Source of the DNA: a virus | Taxonomy: Duplodnaviria > Heunggongvirae > Uroviricota > Caudoviricetes | DNA: 64,000 nt | Strand: one strand, 5' to 3' | Virus record (IMG/VR): IMGVR_UViG_3300029288_003766 | Coordinates: 25,787 to 89,786 of that record | Shown: positions 1,120 to 5,501 of the stretch, one piece after another | Numbering within the stretch: position 1 is the stretch's first letter | Layout of the letters: the number at the start of each line of letters is the position of its first letter | Program-made: the position numbers and the translations under genes | Notes under the pieces: model-generated | Databases searched by the model: none | Told to the model about the DNA's origin: nothing | Seen by the model: only the letters and a program-made list of their open reading frames with translations

Positions 1120-2427
1120 TTAGTCTCCTTTGATAACAGCCATTGGGCTTAACTCAACTAGGATTTCAACAAGATCATTTTGGTTGGCCATAACTTCTGA
1201 AATATCCTTATACGCTCCTGAGGCCTCATCCAAATTTTTCTGAGTTCTCACCCCATGGACAATGCCTTGATCATCAAGCTTCTTCTGCTCTTCTTCAAGG
1301 TTAAGTGTCTTGCAGGCCTGGTTTCTGCCCATCTTCCTACCTGCTCCGTGTGAGCAGCTCTCAAAGCTGTCTTTATTGCCGAGGCCTTTAACGATATATG
1401 ATTTGGTGCCCTGAGATCCCGGTATGATTCCTAGTTCACTGGTCTTAGCTGATGTAGCTCCCTTCCTGTGGACCATAACGTTTGAACCAAAATGGTTTTC
1501 AAGACGAGCATAATTGTGGGCTATGTTTATTTCACTTACAAAAGCAGACATTTCTATCTTTTCACCGCTCATTACTTTTTCTTTTATAAAAATATCCTGA
1601 AATATGCTTATAATTCTCTTCATCATCAGCTTCCTGTTTGCCAAAGCAAAGTCAATGCAATACTGCATTTCAGCTAGATAATTTTGTCCTTCTCTACTAT
1701 CTAATGGAAGAAAGGCCAATGAGTCTTCTTTCTTTTTAGGCAAGTGTGTGTTAGAAAACCAATTGATGTTTAAATTATACGCTAATTCATTATAATGTTT
1801 GGCTACTTTATAGCCTAAGTTTCGACTACCCGAATGGATCATAATCCAAACATTATTTTCATTATCTTTTTGAATTTCTATAAAATGATTGCCCGAACCA
1901 AGCGTGCCTAATTGGAATAGGGCATCAACATACTCGCCGGCAACAATAGGAATATTATATTCTTTAATTTCTTTATCAGGCATATCCGATTCTTTTTGAG
2001 CTTGTTTCTGGTGGTCAAACCCCACTGGAATAACTTCTCTTATCTTACCCATAATCTTCTTAAGAGTTTCTTTGTCTAGCTGATCTACTTTAAGAGAAGT
2101 CTTAACAGCGCACATACCACAACCTATATCCACTCCAACTGCATTAGGCACCACCACTCCTTCAGTGGCCAATACACCACCTATAGGCATACCGTAACCG
2201 CTATGGCAATCCGGCATAATAGCAATATGGTGAAAAGCAAAAGGTAGCCTAGCAAGATTAAGTATCTGTTCCCTGGCTGATTCCTCTACGCCCATATGAT
2301 GTATAGCACTCTCTTTTGTTTGGGGAAGTTCCGGCGGATATGACCAGCTCTCTCCCCATTTCAACCATAATTTAATTGGCACTTTTATTTTGTTGTCGAG
2401 TCCAGTAAAATCTATTTCACTTATCAT
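1120..2427 (-). CDS. rtcB: RNA-splicing ligase RtcB (3'-phosphate/5'-OH RNA ligase)
   Basis: 435 aa with hallmark RtcB motifs: MPDCHSGYG, GVDIGCGM, LGTLGSGNHFIEIQ, HSGSRNLG, HNYA, HRKGAT. Confidence 0.9.
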   Translation of the reverse strand: MISEIDFTGLDNKIKVPIKLWLKWGESWSYPPELPQTKESAIHHMGVEESAREQILNLARLPFAFHHIAIMPDCHSGYGMPIGGVLATEGVVVPNAVGVDIGCGMCAVKTSLKVDQLDKETLKKIMGKIREVIPVGFDHQKQAQKESDMPDKEIKEYNIPIVAGEYVDALFQLGTLGSGNHFIEIQKDNENNVWIMIHSGSRNLGYKVAKHYNELAYNLNINWFSNTHLPKKKEDSLAFLPLDSREGQNYLAEMQYCIDFALANRKLMMKRIISIFQDIFIKEKVMSGEKIEMSAFVSEINIAHNYARLENHFGSNVMVHRKGATSAKTSELGIIPGSQGTKSYIVKGLGNKDSFESCSHGAGRKMGRNQACKTLNLEEEQKKLDDQGIVHGVRTQKNLDEASGAYKDISEVMANQNDLVEILVELSPMAVIKGD

Positions 2428-2433
2428 TTTAGT

Positions 2434-2877
2434 CTATTCCTTTATTTTAACTGAGTGCTTATCAATTACTTTCTTAACAAAATCAAAACATTTTCTGCAT
2501 AGTACATCATTCATATGATTGATCTGGACATATTTCTTCCATTCATCATTCGGCACCATAAATAGATCTGGCCAGAGTTTGCCACATTTGCAACATATAT
2601 TAGGATATACGATATAAGGAACTCTGCCGGCTTTCTCAAGAATATCAATATATTGTTCTTCCTCTTTATCAGATAATCCTTCTTTGTATATTCTAGGAGG
2701 AAGATACGCTGTATCATTGGTATATTTGTGAGTGTCAAATAAATTCATCTTTCGATATACACAATCACAGGTAATAAGCTGACCCCCACAAAATGGACAT
2801 CGTTCCATATCACATCCTAGCTGATGTATCTGGCCTTCCTCTACTCCACAATCATGACATTTATGAGTTTTCTTCAT
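2434..2877 (-). CDS. zinc-finger protein (147 aa), unknown function
   Basis: Several CxxC pairs (CHDCG, CPFCGG, CDC, CCKCG, CRKC); directly upstream of rtcB. Confidence 0.55.
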   Translation of the reverse strand: MKKTHKCHDCGVEEGQIHQLGCDMERCPFCGGQLITCDCVYRKMNLFDTHKYTNDTAYLPPRIYKEGLSDKEEEQYIDILEKAGRVPYIVYPNICCKCGKLWPDLFMVPNDEWKKYVQINHMNDVLCRKCFDFVKKVIDKHSVKIKE

Positions 2878-2888
2878 TTTTCTCCTAT

Positions 2889-3149
2889 TTATAACTTACC
2901 TTTTAACTTTAATAATTTATTTAACACACGGCTATCGGAAACGATTACGGTTTTTTCTATAAAATAACCAATAATCTTGTGTGGAGTATTTGAGGAACCA
3001 TCTTGGCCACAACAAGACTGGCTAACGTTTCCGTTTCTTGCATACTCTTTATAGTGACTCCTATAAAATAAGTCAGCTTCGTAAGTATCTGTTCCTTTAC
3101 ATTTAGAGCACTGCAGCAGGACATAGACTTCTGTCTTATTTTTAATCAT
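2889..3149 (-). CDS. hypothetical Cys-containing small protein (86 aa)
   Basis: ORF in operon orientation with CSKCKG and SQSCCGQ motifs. Confidence 0.45.
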   Translation of the reverse strand: MIKNKTEVYVLLQCSKCKGTDTYEADLFYRSHYKEYARNGNVSQSCCGQDGSSNTPHKIIGYFIEKTVIVSDSRVLNKLLKLKGKL

Positions 3150-3929: not shown

Positions 3930-4296
3930 CCGTAACGAACTCGGGGCTTTCCACCAGATCCTTTGCTTCTTTCAACCCAATTGGTAGCTCGCCGCGAATA
4001 TATTTTATAGCATCAATTTTTGCAATGTTGGGGGTGGTAACGTTGCCGGCCATAAGATTACGGATTGTACTAAATTGTGTCCGGGTTAGGCGGTGTTCAA
4101 GGCAACCTACTTTTATTACAATTCCCTGATCTAGAGCATTGGTAAGATCTCGTACATCATCAGTAATATTATTTTTGCTGTAGCCGATATATTGATATTT
4201 CTCTATTTTATCAGCTAACTGCTGTCTATCTTCCATGCTTGGCAAAGCAATTAACATCCCTAACTGCACCCCAGTGATTGCGTATCTACCGGCCAT
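3916..4296 (-). CDS. protein with ribosomal L7/L12 C-terminal-like domain
   Basis: C-terminus [24 protein letters not shown] resembles the L7/L12 CTD consensus (..[12 protein letters not shown]..). Overlaps the upstream gene by 14 nt. Confidence 0.5.
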   Translation of the reverse strand: [126 protein letters not shown]

Positions 4297-4482
4297 GACC
4301 GCCTCCTTTAGCTTTTACTCTAACCCTTACCTGCAATATACCCCAACACCAACATTCCTATGTATCCCATCATTGTACCCCAACATAGTATAATATTAAC
4401 TATATCTACTTTGCAGTTTCTTATTTGGTTAACCAATAAGCAAACCAAACCAGCTATTACTAATAATACTGCTCCTAACATT

Positions 4483-4761
4483 TTATGCCTCCATATTATA
4501 CAGTTTATCTATGACCAACTGCATCCGTTCTCTTCCTGATGGGTTCATACTTACTATTACTATTTTTCCGGGTAGATACTGTAAGTTTTGTTCTAACCAG
4601 CACAAAATGTCATAGCCTGTCTTAGGATCGTACCCTAAATCATGATCTAAATAAACTACATCCCATTTCTCTTCTTTAAGGGCATTGATTGCTTCATCGT
4701 AGGTTCTTACAGTCTTGCAACAGCCGAAATTTCGCACATCATCTATCAATAAATCTTTCAT
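4483..4761 (-). CDS. receiver-like (CheY-fold-like) small protein, possibly cyclic-phosphate-processing receiver-type
   Basis: 92 aa with LLIDDVRNF ... DVVYLDHDLG ... GYDIL spacing reminiscent of a divergent receiver domain. Confidence 0.4.
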   Translation of the reverse strand: MKDLLIDDVRNFGCCKTVRTYDEAINALKEEKWDVVYLDHDLGYDPKTGYDILCWLEQNLQYLPGKIVIVSMNPSGRERMQLVIDKLYNMEA

Positions 4762-5501
4762 TACTTCTCCTGTTTCATTTCTTTTGTGATGTTAAAACTT
4801 CTTAATCTCTTATTAAAATCTTTCCTCACCTCAGGTAAATATTGATTTTTTTGAATCAGTTTATAAAGTATGGGGTCTCCTAATCTGATTCTCTGCTCCA
4901 GCTCTTTTACTCTCTTGCTAATGTAGGTCTCACCCGGCAACCCCCTCAGCATATCTCCCATTATTAATAAGATCCTATGAACCAAAGCCTGTTGGTAAGC
5001 CATAGTCATATCGTGAACTTTTCGGTTAGAGAACCAAACTATTTGTGAATCAGTAATTTCTTTTACGGCATTGACTAATCTTAGACTGCCAATCCATTGG
5101 TCATAATCGATTAAAGCAACACTGCGATCTTTTTTGTCCGGGGTATTTGAAGGGCGGAATAGGATATGCATAGAGAGTAATATGAAATCGGACTTTATAG
5201 CGTTCTTCCAAATCTCTTTATATATCTTCTCTTTTAAAGAGCATTGCTCAATGACTGTCTTAAATCTTATATATTTAGCATACTTCTTAAACCAAGCCAC
5301 TGTATCTTGCATTGGAATACAGAGGAATATCACGTCAGATTTTTTGATCCTAGCAATTTTCTCTTGTTCTGTTTCATTAATATCAAAACACCAAATATCC
5401 TTTGCCTTCGGCATTGATCTTAATAGTCCTTGGAGTATGAACGATCCTATCTCACCTTTGTAGCCCACTACTAATGGAGCTTTGAACGGCATCTCTTGCA
5501 T
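4761..5501 (-). CDS. Rossmann-fold NAD(P)-binding protein (prephenate/arogenate dehydrogenase-like N-terminus)
   Basis: N-terminal VVGYKGEIGSFILQGL fits a GxGxxG dinucleotide-binding loop; 246 aa. Confidence 0.45.
   Translation of the reverse strand: MQEMPFKAPLVVGYKGEIGSFILQGLLRSMPKAKDIWCFDINETEQEKIARIKKSDVIFLCIPMQDTVAWFKKYAKYIRFKTVIEQCSLKEKIYKEIWKNAIKSDFILLSMHILFRPSNTPDKKDRSVALIDYDQWIGSLRLVNAVKEITDSQIVWFSNRKVHDMTMAYQQALVHRILLIMGDMLRGLPGETYISKRVKELEQRIRLGDPILYKLIQKNQYLPEVRKDFNKRLRSFNITKEMKQEK

What the first reader, a model, noticed from the sequence alone, without database searches (positions are those of the whole stretch)
1120..5501. Phage-borne RtcB ligase with a receiver-like protein, L7/L12-CTD-like protein and radical SAM gene
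RtcB is unambiguous from its motifs. It seals 2',3'-cyclic-phosphate/5'-OH RNA breaks, the product of host anticodon nucleases and ribotoxins. Within 3 kb in the same leftward operon sit three less usual genes. One is a 92-aa receiver-like protein (DVVYLDHDLG), which could be a cyclic-phosphate-processing receiver-type domain as described for RNA-repair loci. The second is a protein ending in an L7/L12 C-terminal-like motif. The third is a radical SAM gene at the window edge. No archease is visible. The arrangement suggests an RNA-damage counter-defence module with non-standard partners.
Basis: partly seen in the sequence, partly recalled or inferred. Interest (0 to 1): 0.7.

Follow-up and report, generated by a model that had tools for sequence, protein, structure and literature searches.

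The report
Jumbo-phage RtcB RNA-repair operon
A 215-kb uncultivated phage carries an intact RtcB RNA-sealing enzyme in one tightly packed operon with a predicted cyclic-phosphate-processing (cREC) protein; most of the other "partners" are unrelated passengers, but an unmentioned phage-only relative of prephenate dehydrogenase turns out to be a recurrent neighbour of RtcB.

Summary

- **RtcB** (1120-2427, minus strand) is full length and keeps every catalytic residue.
- **The 92-aa protein** (4483-4761) is a clear cREC receiver domain (PF20274, E 6e-21).
- **The 126-aa protein** (3916-4296) ends in the β1-α4-α5 part of the bL12 C-terminal domain. This is a truncated motif that scores just under Pfam's cutoff.
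- **A radical SAM gene** starts at 282 and runs off the window edge. It is 326 aa in the source contig.
- **No archease** is annotated anywhere in the window.

The genes lie in one compact leftward operon behind a perfect σ70-type promoter, inside a 214.8-kb phage contig. That contig also carries RlaP, a Thg1-like enzyme, an ATP-dependent RNA ligase and NAD-salvage genes.

The "module with non-standard partners" reading holds only in part:
- cREC, the L12-like protein and the radical SAM gene are not recurrent RtcB neighbours. Close relatives lack cREC or order the genes differently.
- The radical SAM gene's constant partner is an 89-aa protein outside the window.
- Viral RtcB genes mostly stand alone.

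The recurrent neighbour is the unmentioned gene at 4761-5501. It belongs to a phage-restricted TyrA-like dehydrogenase family. In nine dereplicated loci that carry both genes, it and RtcB are usually the only genes shared.

Phage RtcB, cREC and L12 domains are all already described. The TyrA-like pairing appears new.

The parts
6083..6110 (-). Promoter-like site TTGACA-N16-TATAAT (12/12) in the 56-nt gap upstream of orf72. Predicted start of the transcription unit.
   Evidence: It is the only perfect match in 15 kb. The total count of promoter-like sites there is not above chance, so only this site's quality and position count as evidence.
5846..6064 (-). orf72, first gene of the unit, function unknown. 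Homologues keep this position upstream of the TyrA-like gene in L036/L043 and L129.
5514..5849 (-). orf111, function unknown. Overlaps the orf72 stop by 4 nt.
   Evidence: No PHROG hit.
4761..5501 (-). 246-aa TyrA-family (prephenate-dehydrogenase-like) NAD-binding dehydrogenase from a phage-restricted family. The only recurrent RtcB neighbour found.
   Evidence: PDH_N 27.9 bits against a cutoff of 26.5. 273 homologues. AF2 pLDDT 92.1. Foldseek top hits are TyrA structures: 2pv7 E 1.8e-11, TM 0.70. hhalign to E. coli TyrA gives 93% probability with K90=K178, H112=H197, H163/D164=H245/D246, H175=H257, R204=R294.
4483..4761 (-). 92-aa stand-alone cREC (cyclic-phosphate-processing receiver) domain. 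Its ATG shares one base with the TyrA-like stop codon.
   Evidence: PF20274 E 6e-21 and phrog_1479 E 1.5e-20. D7, D8, D39, H40 and D41 are invariant in four homologues. Junction shown.
4320..4481 (-). 53-aa hydrophobic small protein, function unknown.
   Evidence: sequence. No family hit.
3916..4296 (-). 126-aa protein whose C-terminal ~55 residues correspond to β1-α4-α5 of the bL12 C-terminal domain. The N-terminal part is an orphan.
   Evidence: Only 3 full-length homologues in 5.8 billion proteins. AF2 pLDDT 69, with helices at 89-103 and 108-115.
3165..3929 (-). 249/254-aa protein with two CxxCxGxG knuckles. Member of a very large uncharacterised family. Linked to the L12-like gene in L130 as well.
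   Evidence: 1516 cluster representatives with E<=1e-3.
2889..3149 (-). 86-aa Cys-rich protein, function unknown.
2434..2877 (-). 147-aa Cys-rich (multiple CxxC) protein ending 6 nt before RtcB, function unknown.
1120..2427 (-). RtcB 3'-phosphate/2',3'-cyclic-phosphate to 5'-OH RNA ligase, 435 aa, with a complete active site.
855..1118 (-). 87-aa Cys-rich protein starting 1 nt after RtcB, function unknown.
279..842 (-). 187-aa protein, function unknown. Its stop overlaps the radical SAM start (ATGA).
   Evidence: Weak homologues near the radical SAM gene in L029 and near the TyrA-like gene in L098.
1..282 (-). First 93 codons of a 326-aa radical SAM enzyme (CNFKCPYC). Subfamily unassigned. Its conserved partner is an 89-aa protein beyond the window edge.

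Best explanation
The region is the middle of a co-transcribed accessory operon of at least 13 genes (from about 6110 down to beyond position 1, minus strand) in a ~215-kb uncultivated jumbo phage.

RtcB, the core enzyme. It is a catalytically complete RtcB. By the established RtcB mechanism, it should take RNA ends left by metal-independent host ribonucleases (2',3'-cyclic phosphate or 3'-phosphate plus 5'-OH). It should activate the 3'-phosphate through His360-GMP and seal the break. This would restore tRNAs, or other RNAs, cut by anticodon nucleases or toxins during infection. That step is inferred from family membership, not shown. RtcB needs no partner for this, and in most phages it stands alone.

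cREC. The 92-aa cREC protein is a member of a family predicted, but never experimentally shown, to open cyclic phosphates on RNA ends or ADP-ribose derivatives. Here it is most likely an optional add-on. It may diversify end-processing, for instance by feeding the phage's second, ATP-dependent ligase, or it may destroy cyclic-phosphate signals.

TyrA-like dehydrogenase. This enzyme keeps the NAD-binding loop, the catalytic His and the substrate-binding Arg of prephenate dehydrogenase. It is the one gene repeatedly kept upstream of RtcB, so it probably acts in the same infection-stage task. It likely performs an NAD-linked oxidation of a prephenate-like metabolite, or serves a redox or NAD(H)-dependent support role. 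Its substrate is unknown.

Passengers. The L12-motif protein, the Cys-rich small proteins and the radical SAM pair are independent accessory genes that share the promoter.
For: - Phage identity and operon structure.
- RtcB completeness.
- cREC membership. Published prediction and its uncharacterised status: PMC7824862 and PMC9503650.
- Other tRNA-repair and NAD-salvage genes in the same window.
- RtcB is usually solitary. In 82 dereplicated viral RtcB loci no neighbour family exceeds 4 loci, and cREC appears in 2.
- cREC is not fixed here. It is absent from the syntenic relative L129.
- TyrA-like and RtcB. RtcB lies within 4 kb on the same strand in 9 of 54 usable dereplicated TyrA-like loci, downstream in 8 of them. 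In most pairwise comparisons of 9 loci with both genes (23 of 36), these two are the only shared genes within ±6 kb. Catalytic residues are conserved. The family is virtually absent from 185,579 species genomes: 4 MAG contigs, two of which carry detectable phage replication or repair genes.
- The radical SAM gene pairs with the 89-aa protein in 5 loci.
Against: - No activity was tested for any protein.
- TyrA-like is absent from all 82 RtcB-seeded viral loci. About 70-80% of TyrA-like loci with adequate flanks have no RtcB nearby. It therefore cannot be a general RtcB cofactor, and some of the linkage may still reflect ancestry within one phage clade.
- The cREC start is translationally coupled to the TyrA-like stop, which could mean a closer functional tie than 'optional add-on'.
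- The host and the nuclease being countered are unknown.
- There are no tRNA genes in the window.
Confidence: 0.55

Rival explanations
1. Integrated module. cREC, the L12-CTD-like protein and the radical SAM enzyme are dedicated, non-standard partners of RtcB in one RNA-repair machine.
For: All lie in one operon with overlapping or nearly abutting genes. cREC has published contextual links to RNA ligases. cREC lies next to RtcB in 2 other viral loci, L230 and L197.
Against: The L12-like protein and the 89-aa partner occur in 0 of 82 RtcB loci, the radical SAM enzyme gives one weak hit, and cREC occurs in only 2 of 82. RtcB occurs in 0 of 20 cREC loci and near none of the L12-motif loci. Relatives L129 and L130 drop cREC or order the genes differently. 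The radical SAM gene keeps a different partner.
Confidence: 0.08
2. Pure collage. Every gene, including the TyrA-like one, is an independent accessory gene. The TyrA-like/RtcB adjacency is residual synteny within one phage clade and has no functional meaning.
For: Phage accessory regions are mosaics. Most viral RtcB loci have no recurrent neighbour. TyrA-like is absent from all 82 RtcB-seeded loci. RtcB-linked TyrA-like genes are mostly the closer relatives of the window's gene.
Against: In most pairs of the 9 loci, everything else within ±6 kb has turned over while the pair and its order persist. Spacing ranges from 0 to 2.3 kb with different inserts. That pattern is what selection for linkage produces.
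Confidence: 0.25
3. An NAD/ADP-ribose-centred counter-defence unit. TyrA-like (NAD-binding) and cREC act on NAD-derived or cyclic-phosphate signalling molecules, or on NAD economy. RtcB is the neighbour because RNA repair and NAD salvage genes cluster in these phages.
For: cREC is predicted to process ADPr>P as well as RNA>P. The TyrA-like stop and cREC start overlap. NAPRTase, NMNAT-like, nicotinamidase and HD_4 genes flank TyrA-like/RtcB in L037/L055, L040, L042 and L052, and flank RtcB in L001 and L030. An ADP-ribosylglycohydrolase-like family lies near TyrA-like in 5 loci.
Against: TyrA-like keeps the prephenate-type catalytic His and Arg rather than any known NAD-consuming site. cREC is near TyrA-like in only 2 of 54 usable loci. 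No enzyme activity is known.
Confidence: 0.1
4. Ribosome-directed repair. The L12-motif protein brings translation factors, or the repair enzyme, to damaged ribosomes, and RtcB reseals rRNA. This would be analogous to bacterial PrfH-RtcB2 (own knowledge, not checked here).
For: The motif is the bL12 surface that binds EF-Tu, EF-G, IF2 and RF3 (established knowledge). Phage bL12 domains keep factor-contact residues.
Against: The L12-like family has only 3 relatives, and none was seen next to RtcB (L129 and L130 are short contigs). The domain is truncated. RtcB scores far below the PrfH-coupled equivalog cutoff: 148.7 against 271.8.
Confidence: 0.03

Closest known systems
Jumbo-phage RNA-repair and NAD-centred counter-defence gene sets (Iyer, Anantharaman, Krishnan, Burroughs, Aravind 2021, PMC7824862; and 2022, PMC9503650)
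   Same: Large phage with RtcB, a stand-alone cREC domain, RlaP, Thg1, an ATP-dependent RNA ligase and NAD-salvage enzymes. cREC is never paired with a histidine kinase. cREC sits in an operon with an RNA ligase.
   Different: Those surveys do not mention a prephenate-dehydrogenase-like or a radical SAM component. Here the typical cREC companions seen in their neighbourhoods (sirtuin, Nudix, 2H, kinase) were not found among the Pfam-annotated genes of the window. cREC next to RtcB is rare in my samples (2 of 82, and 0 of 20).
Bacterial and archaeal RtcB RNA ligases (E. coli RtcB; P. horikoshii RtcB, PDB 4dwr/1uc2)
   Same: Full-length PF01139 match. Identical metal-binding and GMP-accepting residues.
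   Different: Below the cutoffs of the NCBIfam equivalogs for E. coli-type RtcB (183 against 407) and PrfH-coupled RtcB (149 against 272). No RtcA/RtcR, archease or PrfH nearby. Phage-encoded.
Phage proteins carrying bL12 domains (Mizuno et al. 2019, PMC6375957)
   Same: A bL12 C-terminal-domain segment with conserved factor-contact residues, embedded in an otherwise unrelated phage protein. Variable genomic context and multiple independent acquisitions. I saw the same in L009, L014 and L016-L018, and full-length phage bL12 in L010 and L015.
   Different: Only β1-α4-α5 is present. The protein stops right after α5, so it cannot form the complete domain.
TyrA family prephenate/arogenate dehydrogenases (E. 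coli TyrA, H. influenzae 2pv7, A. aeolicus 2g5c/3ggg)
   Same: Fold (TM about 0.70), a GxxGxxG-type nucleotide-binding loop, and the equivalents of K178, H197, H245, H257 and R294.
   Different: About 17-22% identity. Shorter, at ~230-250 aa. No chorismate mutase or ACT domain. No aromatic-amino-acid genes nearby. Found almost only on phage contigs. Far below the NCBIfam equivalog cutoffs (42 against 310).
PYROXD1-RTCB (human tRNA ligase complex; PMC12263435)
   Same: A pyridine-nucleotide-dependent oxidoreductase functionally tied to RtcB. This is offered only as a conceptual precedent.
   Different: Unrelated fold (flavoprotein disulfide-reductase type against a TyrA Rossmann fold). No evidence of physical interaction here. 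TyrA-like is absent from most phage RtcB loci.

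Membership tests
RtcB (PF01139) | Full-length profile match above the curated cutoff | tested here: met
   382.9 bits against 27; profile positions 1-426 of 426.
RtcB (PF01139) | Metal-binding Asp/Cys/His residues and the GMP-accepting His (P. horikoshii D65, C98, H203, H234, H329, H404) | tested here: met
   D73, C103, H181, H198, H304 and H360 aligned. 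All are invariant in 13 phage RtcBs.
RtcB (PF01139) | GTP/Mn2+-dependent sealing of 3'-P or 2',3'>P with 5'-OH RNA ends | not testable with these tools
   Needs a biochemical assay.
cREC (PF20274) | Profile match above the curated cutoff, and better than the classical receiver model | tested here: met
   75.4 bits against 27. Response_reg gives only 18 bits, below its 30.2 cutoff.
cREC (PF20274) | Conserved acidic residues after β1 (DD) and β3 (DxD) | tested here: met
   D7, D8, D39, H40 and D41 are invariant in alignment A3.
cREC (PF20274) | No histidine kinase or output domain; context of RNA-repair or NAD-processing genes | tested here: met
   Stand-alone 92 aa. No kinase among the annotated genes. 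RtcB lies 2 kb away. In other loci: RNA ligase in 3 of 20, RlaP in 2 of 20, a CCA-adding-enzyme-like gene (by sequence inspection) in L008.
cREC (PF20274) | Cyclic-phosphodiesterase activity | not testable with these tools
   This is only a prediction in the literature (PMC9503650).
Ribosomal protein bL12 / L7-L12 C-terminal domain (PF00542) | Profile match above the curated cutoff | tested here: not met
   25.6 bits against 25.9, covering only 27 of 67 profile positions. TIGR00855 gives 17.8 against 84.4.
Ribosomal protein bL12 / L7-L12 C-terminal domain (PF00542) | Complete α/β C-terminal domain (β1-α4-α5-β2-α6-β3) | tested here: not met
   The alignment stops at α5 and the protein ends 9 residues later. 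The model shows only two C-terminal helices.
Ribosomal protein bL12 / L7-L12 C-terminal domain (PF00542) | N-terminal dimerisation/uL10-binding domain and flexible hinge | tested here: not met
   Residues 1-60 match nothing, and only 3 homologues exist. Fold search was uninformative.
Ribosomal protein bL12 / L7-L12 C-terminal domain (PF00542) | Conserved factor-contact residues in α4/α5 | tested here: met
   K.IK..R...[11 protein letters not shown] is identical to E. coli bL12 and invariant in 4 homologues.
TyrA / prephenate dehydrogenase | Profile match above curated cutoffs | tested here: inconclusive
   PDH_N 27.9 against 26.5 (passes). PDH_C 14.1 against 22 (fails). Best NCBIfam equivalog 42 against 310 (fails).
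TyrA / prephenate dehydrogenase | Fold: Rossmann domain plus helical dimerisation domain | tested here: met
   pLDDT 92 model. The top 10 Foldseek PDB hits are all TyrA enzymes, with TM 0.62-0.70.
TyrA / prephenate dehydrogenase | Catalytic His (E. coli H197), substrate-binding Arg (R294), K178 and the HD...H motif | tested here: met
   hhalign at 93% probability. H112, R204, K90, H163/D164 and H175 are all invariant in 33 family members.
TyrA / prephenate dehydrogenase | Oxidative decarboxylation of prephenate or arogenate; aromatic-amino-acid pathway context | tested here: not met
   Context: no aro/phe/tyr genes in any of about 90 loci inspected. Neighbours are RtcB, HD_4, nicotinamidase and homing endonucleases. 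Activity cannot be tested here.
Radical SAM (PF04055) | CxxxCxxC cluster motif and profile match above the cutoff | tested here: met
   CNFKCPYC. 68.9 bits against 29.5 for the full-length protein from the source contig.
Radical SAM subfamilies (MoaA, viperin, NrdG, QueE, SPASM maturases) | Equivalog-level match | tested here: not met
   Best is MoaA at 74.5 against 284; viperin at 53 against 180. PDB best is Tes at 43 bits. PHROGs gives only generic radical SAM families.
Archease-dependent RtcB system | Archease gene (PF01951) in the locus | tested here: not met
   No archease among the precomputed Pfam hits for called genes over window 1-64000 and 9 kb beyond the left edge. Small or unannotated genes cannot be excluded.

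The most novel reading that the evidence does not exclude
A phage-restricted TyrA-family dehydrogenase is a functional companion of phage RtcB. One version: it is an NAD(H)-dependent guardian or activator of the oxidation-sensitive RtcB active site, a non-homologous analogue of metazoan PYROXD1. Another version: it drains prephenate and so changes prephenate-dependent tRNA wobble modification (carboxy-SAM/cmo5U) and thereby tRNA susceptibility to anticodon nucleases. Either way, an amino-acid-pathway enzyme would have been recruited into RNA-damage counter-defence.
Probability: 0.12. Interest if true: 0.7.

Novelty: new member of a known kind. Interest (0 to 1): 0.4.

Why it matters
Phage RNA-repair genes are a counter-measure to the many bacterial defences that cut tRNA or other RNA. 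Knowing which genes really work together tells experimenters what to clone.

This analysis shows that RtcB in phages is essentially a solo enzyme. The attractive "partners" here (cREC, the L12 motif protein, radical SAM) are mostly operon passengers, so a search for a multi-protein machine is not warranted.

It also gives two concrete leads:
1. A compact, well-defined stand-alone cREC protein in a repair context. It would be a good candidate for the first biochemical test of the predicted cyclic-phosphate activity.
2. A previously undescribed, phage-only TyrA-like dehydrogenase family of more than 270 members that repeatedly sits upstream of RtcB. If the two are functionally tied, it would connect redox or aromatic metabolism to RNA repair.

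Tried and rejected
1. DNA similarity of window 1-8000 to 50,697 phage records found no match.
2. The six closest viral RtcB loci share no neighbours with the window.
3. A single-sequence scan for TyrA-like in viral contigs found nothing. An alignment-based scan was needed.
4. Rejected: it has no CxxxCxxC motif and is TyrA-like. The radical SAM gene is at 1-282.
5. Structure of the L12-like protein: pLDDT was only 69, and Foldseek against PDB gave no hit with E<1. Uninformative.
6. The homologue of window 55518-56153 that recurs near cREC looked like a possible kinase partner. It is a NUMOD3 homing-endonuclease-type gene. Rejected.
7. TyrA-like as a universal RtcB cofactor: rejected, 0 of 82 RtcB-seeded loci.
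8. Radical SAM as MoaA, viperin, QueE or NrdG: all far below cutoffs.
9. The 89-aa radical SAM partner as a Cys-rich precursor peptide: its conserved residues are W, R, GY, K, M, W, H and EF, not Cys.
10. Literature searches for prephenate dehydrogenase with RtcB or with jumbo phages found 0 papers. No post-2022 experimental paper on cREC was found.
11. Rfam and tRNA scans of the window found nothing.
12. PurZ against PurA for 24448-25569 is left unresolved. The PHROG label says PurZ, but the GDEGKG Asp is retained.

Full report
**What is there.** The first 13 kb of the window is a run of minus-strand genes. From about 15 kb on, the plus strand carries replication genes: PolA, a DnaB-type helicase, primase, clamp-loader-like ATPases, gp32 and a UvsX/RecA-like recombinase. 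An exact-protein look-up places the window in an ENA metagenome contig of 214,834 bp, with record coordinate = window + 80,500. There is no nucleotide match to deposited phage genomes, no tRNA gene and no Rfam family. This is therefore an uncultivated jumbo-sized phage.

**Check of the observation.**
- *RtcB.* 1120-2427(-) encodes a 435-aa RtcB. PF01139 gives E 3.3e-114 over the whole profile, and phrog_1075 is annotated 'tRNA splicing ligase'. In the HMMER alignment to P. horikoshii RtcB I counted the residues directly. D65, C98, N202, H203, H234, H329, H404 and R408 correspond to D73, C103, N180, H181, H198, H304, H360 and R364. All are invariant in 13 phage RtcBs.
- *Receiver-like protein.* 4483-4761(-) is a 92-aa stand-alone domain that scores 75.4 bits on cREC_REC (PF20274, cutoff 27) and only 18 bits on the ordinary receiver model. 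D7, D8 and the D39-H40-D41 triad are invariant in its relatives.
- *L12-like protein.* 3916-4296(-) encodes 126 aa. Residues 92-118 hit Ribosomal_L12 at 25.6 bits, just under the 25.9 cutoff. Against E. coli bL12 the alignment runs from β1 through α4 and α5, with [11 protein letters not shown] identical, and the protein ends nine residues later. It is half of a bL12 C-terminal domain, not a ribosomal protein.
In the source contig it is 326 aa with PF04055 E 7.6e-19.
- *Archease.* No archease domain is recorded on any called gene across the window.

These are a 246-aa dehydrogenase (4761-5501), a 53-aa hydrophobic protein, a 249/254-aa CxxCxGxG protein and two Cys-rich proteins of 86 and 147 aa.

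**Operon structure.** From orf72 (5846-6064) down to the radical SAM gene, successive genes are separated by -4 to 23 nt. Each has a GGAG-type Shine-Dalgarno sequence. The cREC ATG shares a base with the stop of the upstream dehydrogenase, and the radical SAM ATG overlaps the preceding stop as ATGA. The only sizeable gap (6064-6121) holds a perfect TTGACA-N16-TATAAT. Promoter-like sites in general are not enriched, so only this one site is offered as evidence. No convincing minus-strand terminator lies inside the unit. Co-transcription is therefore likely, though inferred.

**Are the neighbours partners of RtcB?** I tested this from each gene's side.
- *RtcB-seeded.* The six closest viral loci share no neighbour with the window. 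In a larger sample of 82 dereplicated viral RtcB loci, no neighbour family occurs in more than four. HMMs built here find cREC in 2 (L230, directly downstream; L197, 1.9 kb upstream), RlaP in 6, and the L12-like protein, the 89-aa radical SAM partner and the TyrA-like protein in none. The radical SAM enzyme itself gives one weak hit, in L234. Viral RtcB is thus mostly a solitary gene.
- *cREC-seeded.* In 20 viral loci there is no RtcB. An ATP-dependent RNA ligase lies within 2 kb in 3 loci and RlaP occurs in 2. In L008 I recognised a CCA-adding-enzyme-like gene and a metallophosphoesterase by sequence inspection, and in L007 a PTH2-like gene directly upstream. This fits the published picture of cREC as a floating component of RNA-repair and NAD-ADPr neighbourhoods. 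That picture is explicitly still a prediction (PMC7824862 and PMC9503650).
- *L12-like.* The full-length family has only three relatives in 5.8 billion proteins. In L129, a syntenic relative, the order is TyrA-like, an unrelated 80-aa gene, then L12-like, so cREC and the 53-aa gene are missing. In L130 the orf254 homologue precedes the L12-like gene. The 25-residue motif alone occurs in otherwise unrelated phage proteins (L009, L014, L016-L018) and in full-length phage bL12 (L010, L015), none near RNA-repair genes. This matches Mizuno et al. 2019, who found bL12 domains inserted into diverse phage proteins in varied contexts.
- *Radical SAM.* Nine viral homologues share 47-57% identity. The recurrent neighbour is an 89-aa protein lying just beyond the window edge, adjacent in five loci. 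RtcB is near in only one of them (L030). No subfamily can be assigned.

**The unexpected recurrent neighbour.** The 246-aa protein at 4761-5501 passes the PDH_N cutoff narrowly and has 273 metagenomic homologues of ~225-250 aa, many on 50-370-kb contigs.
- *What it is.* With a 33-sequence alignment, AlphaFold gives pLDDT 92. Every one of the top ten Foldseek PDB hits is a TyrA enzyme, with 2pv7 at E 1.8e-11 and TM 0.70. A profile alignment to E. coli TyrA (93% probability) puts the family's invariant residues on known TyrA positions. K90, H112, H163/D164, H175 and R204 fall on K178, the catalytic H197, H245/D246, H257 and the prephenate-binding R294. The residue roles come from established TyrA enzymology, which is my own knowledge. 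It is therefore a genuine TyrA-family dehydrogenase.
- *Where it is found.* It has no aromatic-pathway context and is almost confined to phage DNA. There are only four hits in 185,579 species genomes, all on MAG contigs; two of them carry detectable phage replication or repair genes.
- *Its neighbours.* Among 54 usable, dereplicated loci, RtcB lies within 4 kb on the same strand in 9, downstream in 8. Next most frequent are an HD_4 phosphohydrolase, a nicotinamidase and an ADP-ribosylglycohydrolase-like protein, at 5 loci each.
- *Is the pairing more than synteny?* In nine dereplicated loci that carry both genes, the TyrA-like gene and RtcB are the only shared genes within ±6 kb in most pairwise comparisons (23 of 36). 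Spacing varies from 0 to 2.3 kb. That is more than leftover synteny.
- *Limits.* The pairing is one-sided. TyrA-like is absent from all 82 RtcB-seeded loci, and most TyrA-like loci lack RtcB nearby. It cannot be a general RtcB cofactor. I found no paper linking prephenate dehydrogenase with RtcB or with jumbo phages.

**Most likely function.** RtcB should reseal RNAs cut by metal-independent host ribonucleases; this rests on family membership and is not demonstrated. The phage has a wider repair kit in the same window:
- RlaP, 20920-21879
- a Thg1-like 3'-5' polymerase, 25554-26258
- an ATP-dependent RNA ligase, 33200-34117
- an HD_4 hydrolase, NAPRTase and nicotinamidase, within 27282-31110

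RtcB itself opens 2',3'-cyclic phosphates, so cREC is not required for its reaction. cREC more plausibly prepares ends for the other ligase, or removes cyclic-phosphate products or signals.

The TyrA-like enzyme probably performs an NAD-linked oxidation that is useful in the same situation, but its substrate is unknown. A conceptual precedent for an oxidoreductase serving RtcB exists in human PYROXD1 (PMC12263435). That protein has an unrelated fold, and I rate the analogy as a low-probability lead.

The L12-motif protein may present the factor-binding face of bL12 to a translational GTPase. This is speculation.

**Verdict.**
- The counter-defence reading is reasonable for RtcB and for cREC, although the cREC role is weakly supported.
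- The 'module with non-standard partners' is largely an operon of independent accessory genes.
- Phage RtcB, cREC and phage bL12 domains are all described already, so this is a new member of a known kind.
- The modest novelty is the phage-restricted TyrA-like family and its repeated placement upstream of RtcB.

Noticed in passing
window 22313-25569 (+); L030 5212-7586: A 141-aa gene, a 282-aa gene (phrog_2971) and an adenylosuccinate-synthetase-like gene, interrupted here by a GIY-YIG homing endonuclease (23586-24455). The synthetase-like gene hits phrog_1211, whose label is PurZ-type, at E 4.6e-56. The same trio without the endonuclease lies next to the radical SAM pair in L030. The GDEGKG Asp is retained, so PurZ (2-aminoadenine DNA) against PurA is unresolved.
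   Followed up: partly
window 20920-21879, 25554-26258, 33200-34117 (+): Further tRNA-repair genes on the other strand: an RlaP nucleotidyltransferase, a Thg1-like 3'-5' polymerase (phrog_4717, E 5e-70) and an ATP-dependent RNA ligase (PF09414).
   Followed up: partly
window 27282-31110 (+); L037/L055, L040, L042, L001, L030: An NAD-salvage set: HD_4 phosphohydrolase, NAPRTase and isochorismatase/nicotinamidase. Homologues of these repeatedly flank RtcB and/or the TyrA-like gene in other phage contigs. L055 also has an NMNAT-like gene directly upstream of its TyrA-like gene.
   Followed up: partly
L001 8293-9893: In another phage, RtcB is preceded by a ThiF/E1-like protein and a 71-aa ubiquitin-like protein with a Gly-Gly near its C-terminus (…VSGGS). 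It is followed immediately by a nicotinamidase.
   Followed up: no
L036/L043/L060 (RtcB 719 aa): The RtcB next to the TyrA-like gene in this lineage carries a ~300-aa insertion right after the DIGC active-site cysteine motif. This is consistent with an intein.
   Followed up: no
window 3165-3929 (-): The CxxCxGxG protein belongs to a very large family with no Pfam model. It has 1516 cluster representatives at E<=1e-3, and 280 at E<=1e-30.
   Followed up: partly
window 56178-58619 (+): A family-A DNA polymerase with an N-terminal uracil-DNA-glycosylase-like domain (PF03167 + DNA_pol_A_exo1 + DNA_pol_A).
   Followed up: no
window 16768-19370 (+): Three consecutive N6/N4 DNA methyltransferase genes (396, 252 and 215 aa).
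   Followed up: no
window ~13000-15500: Divergent switch of coding strand, with a change of GC-skew sign. A strong promoter-like site (11/12 with an extended -10 TG) lies at 14896-14868 (-).
   Followed up: no
L019 13095-13364 (just left of the window): An 89-aa protein is conserved beside the radical SAM enzyme in five phage contigs. Its invariant residues are W, R, GY, R.K, M, W.H and EF. It has no family hit. Together with the radical SAM enzyme it forms an uncharacterised two-gene unit.
   Followed up: partly
window 31476-35508 (+): A Band_7/SPFH, LemA and TPM_phosphatase membrane-associated gene cluster. It is partly syntenic with L040 5317-7461, next to that contig's TyrA-like/RtcB pair.
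   Followed up: no
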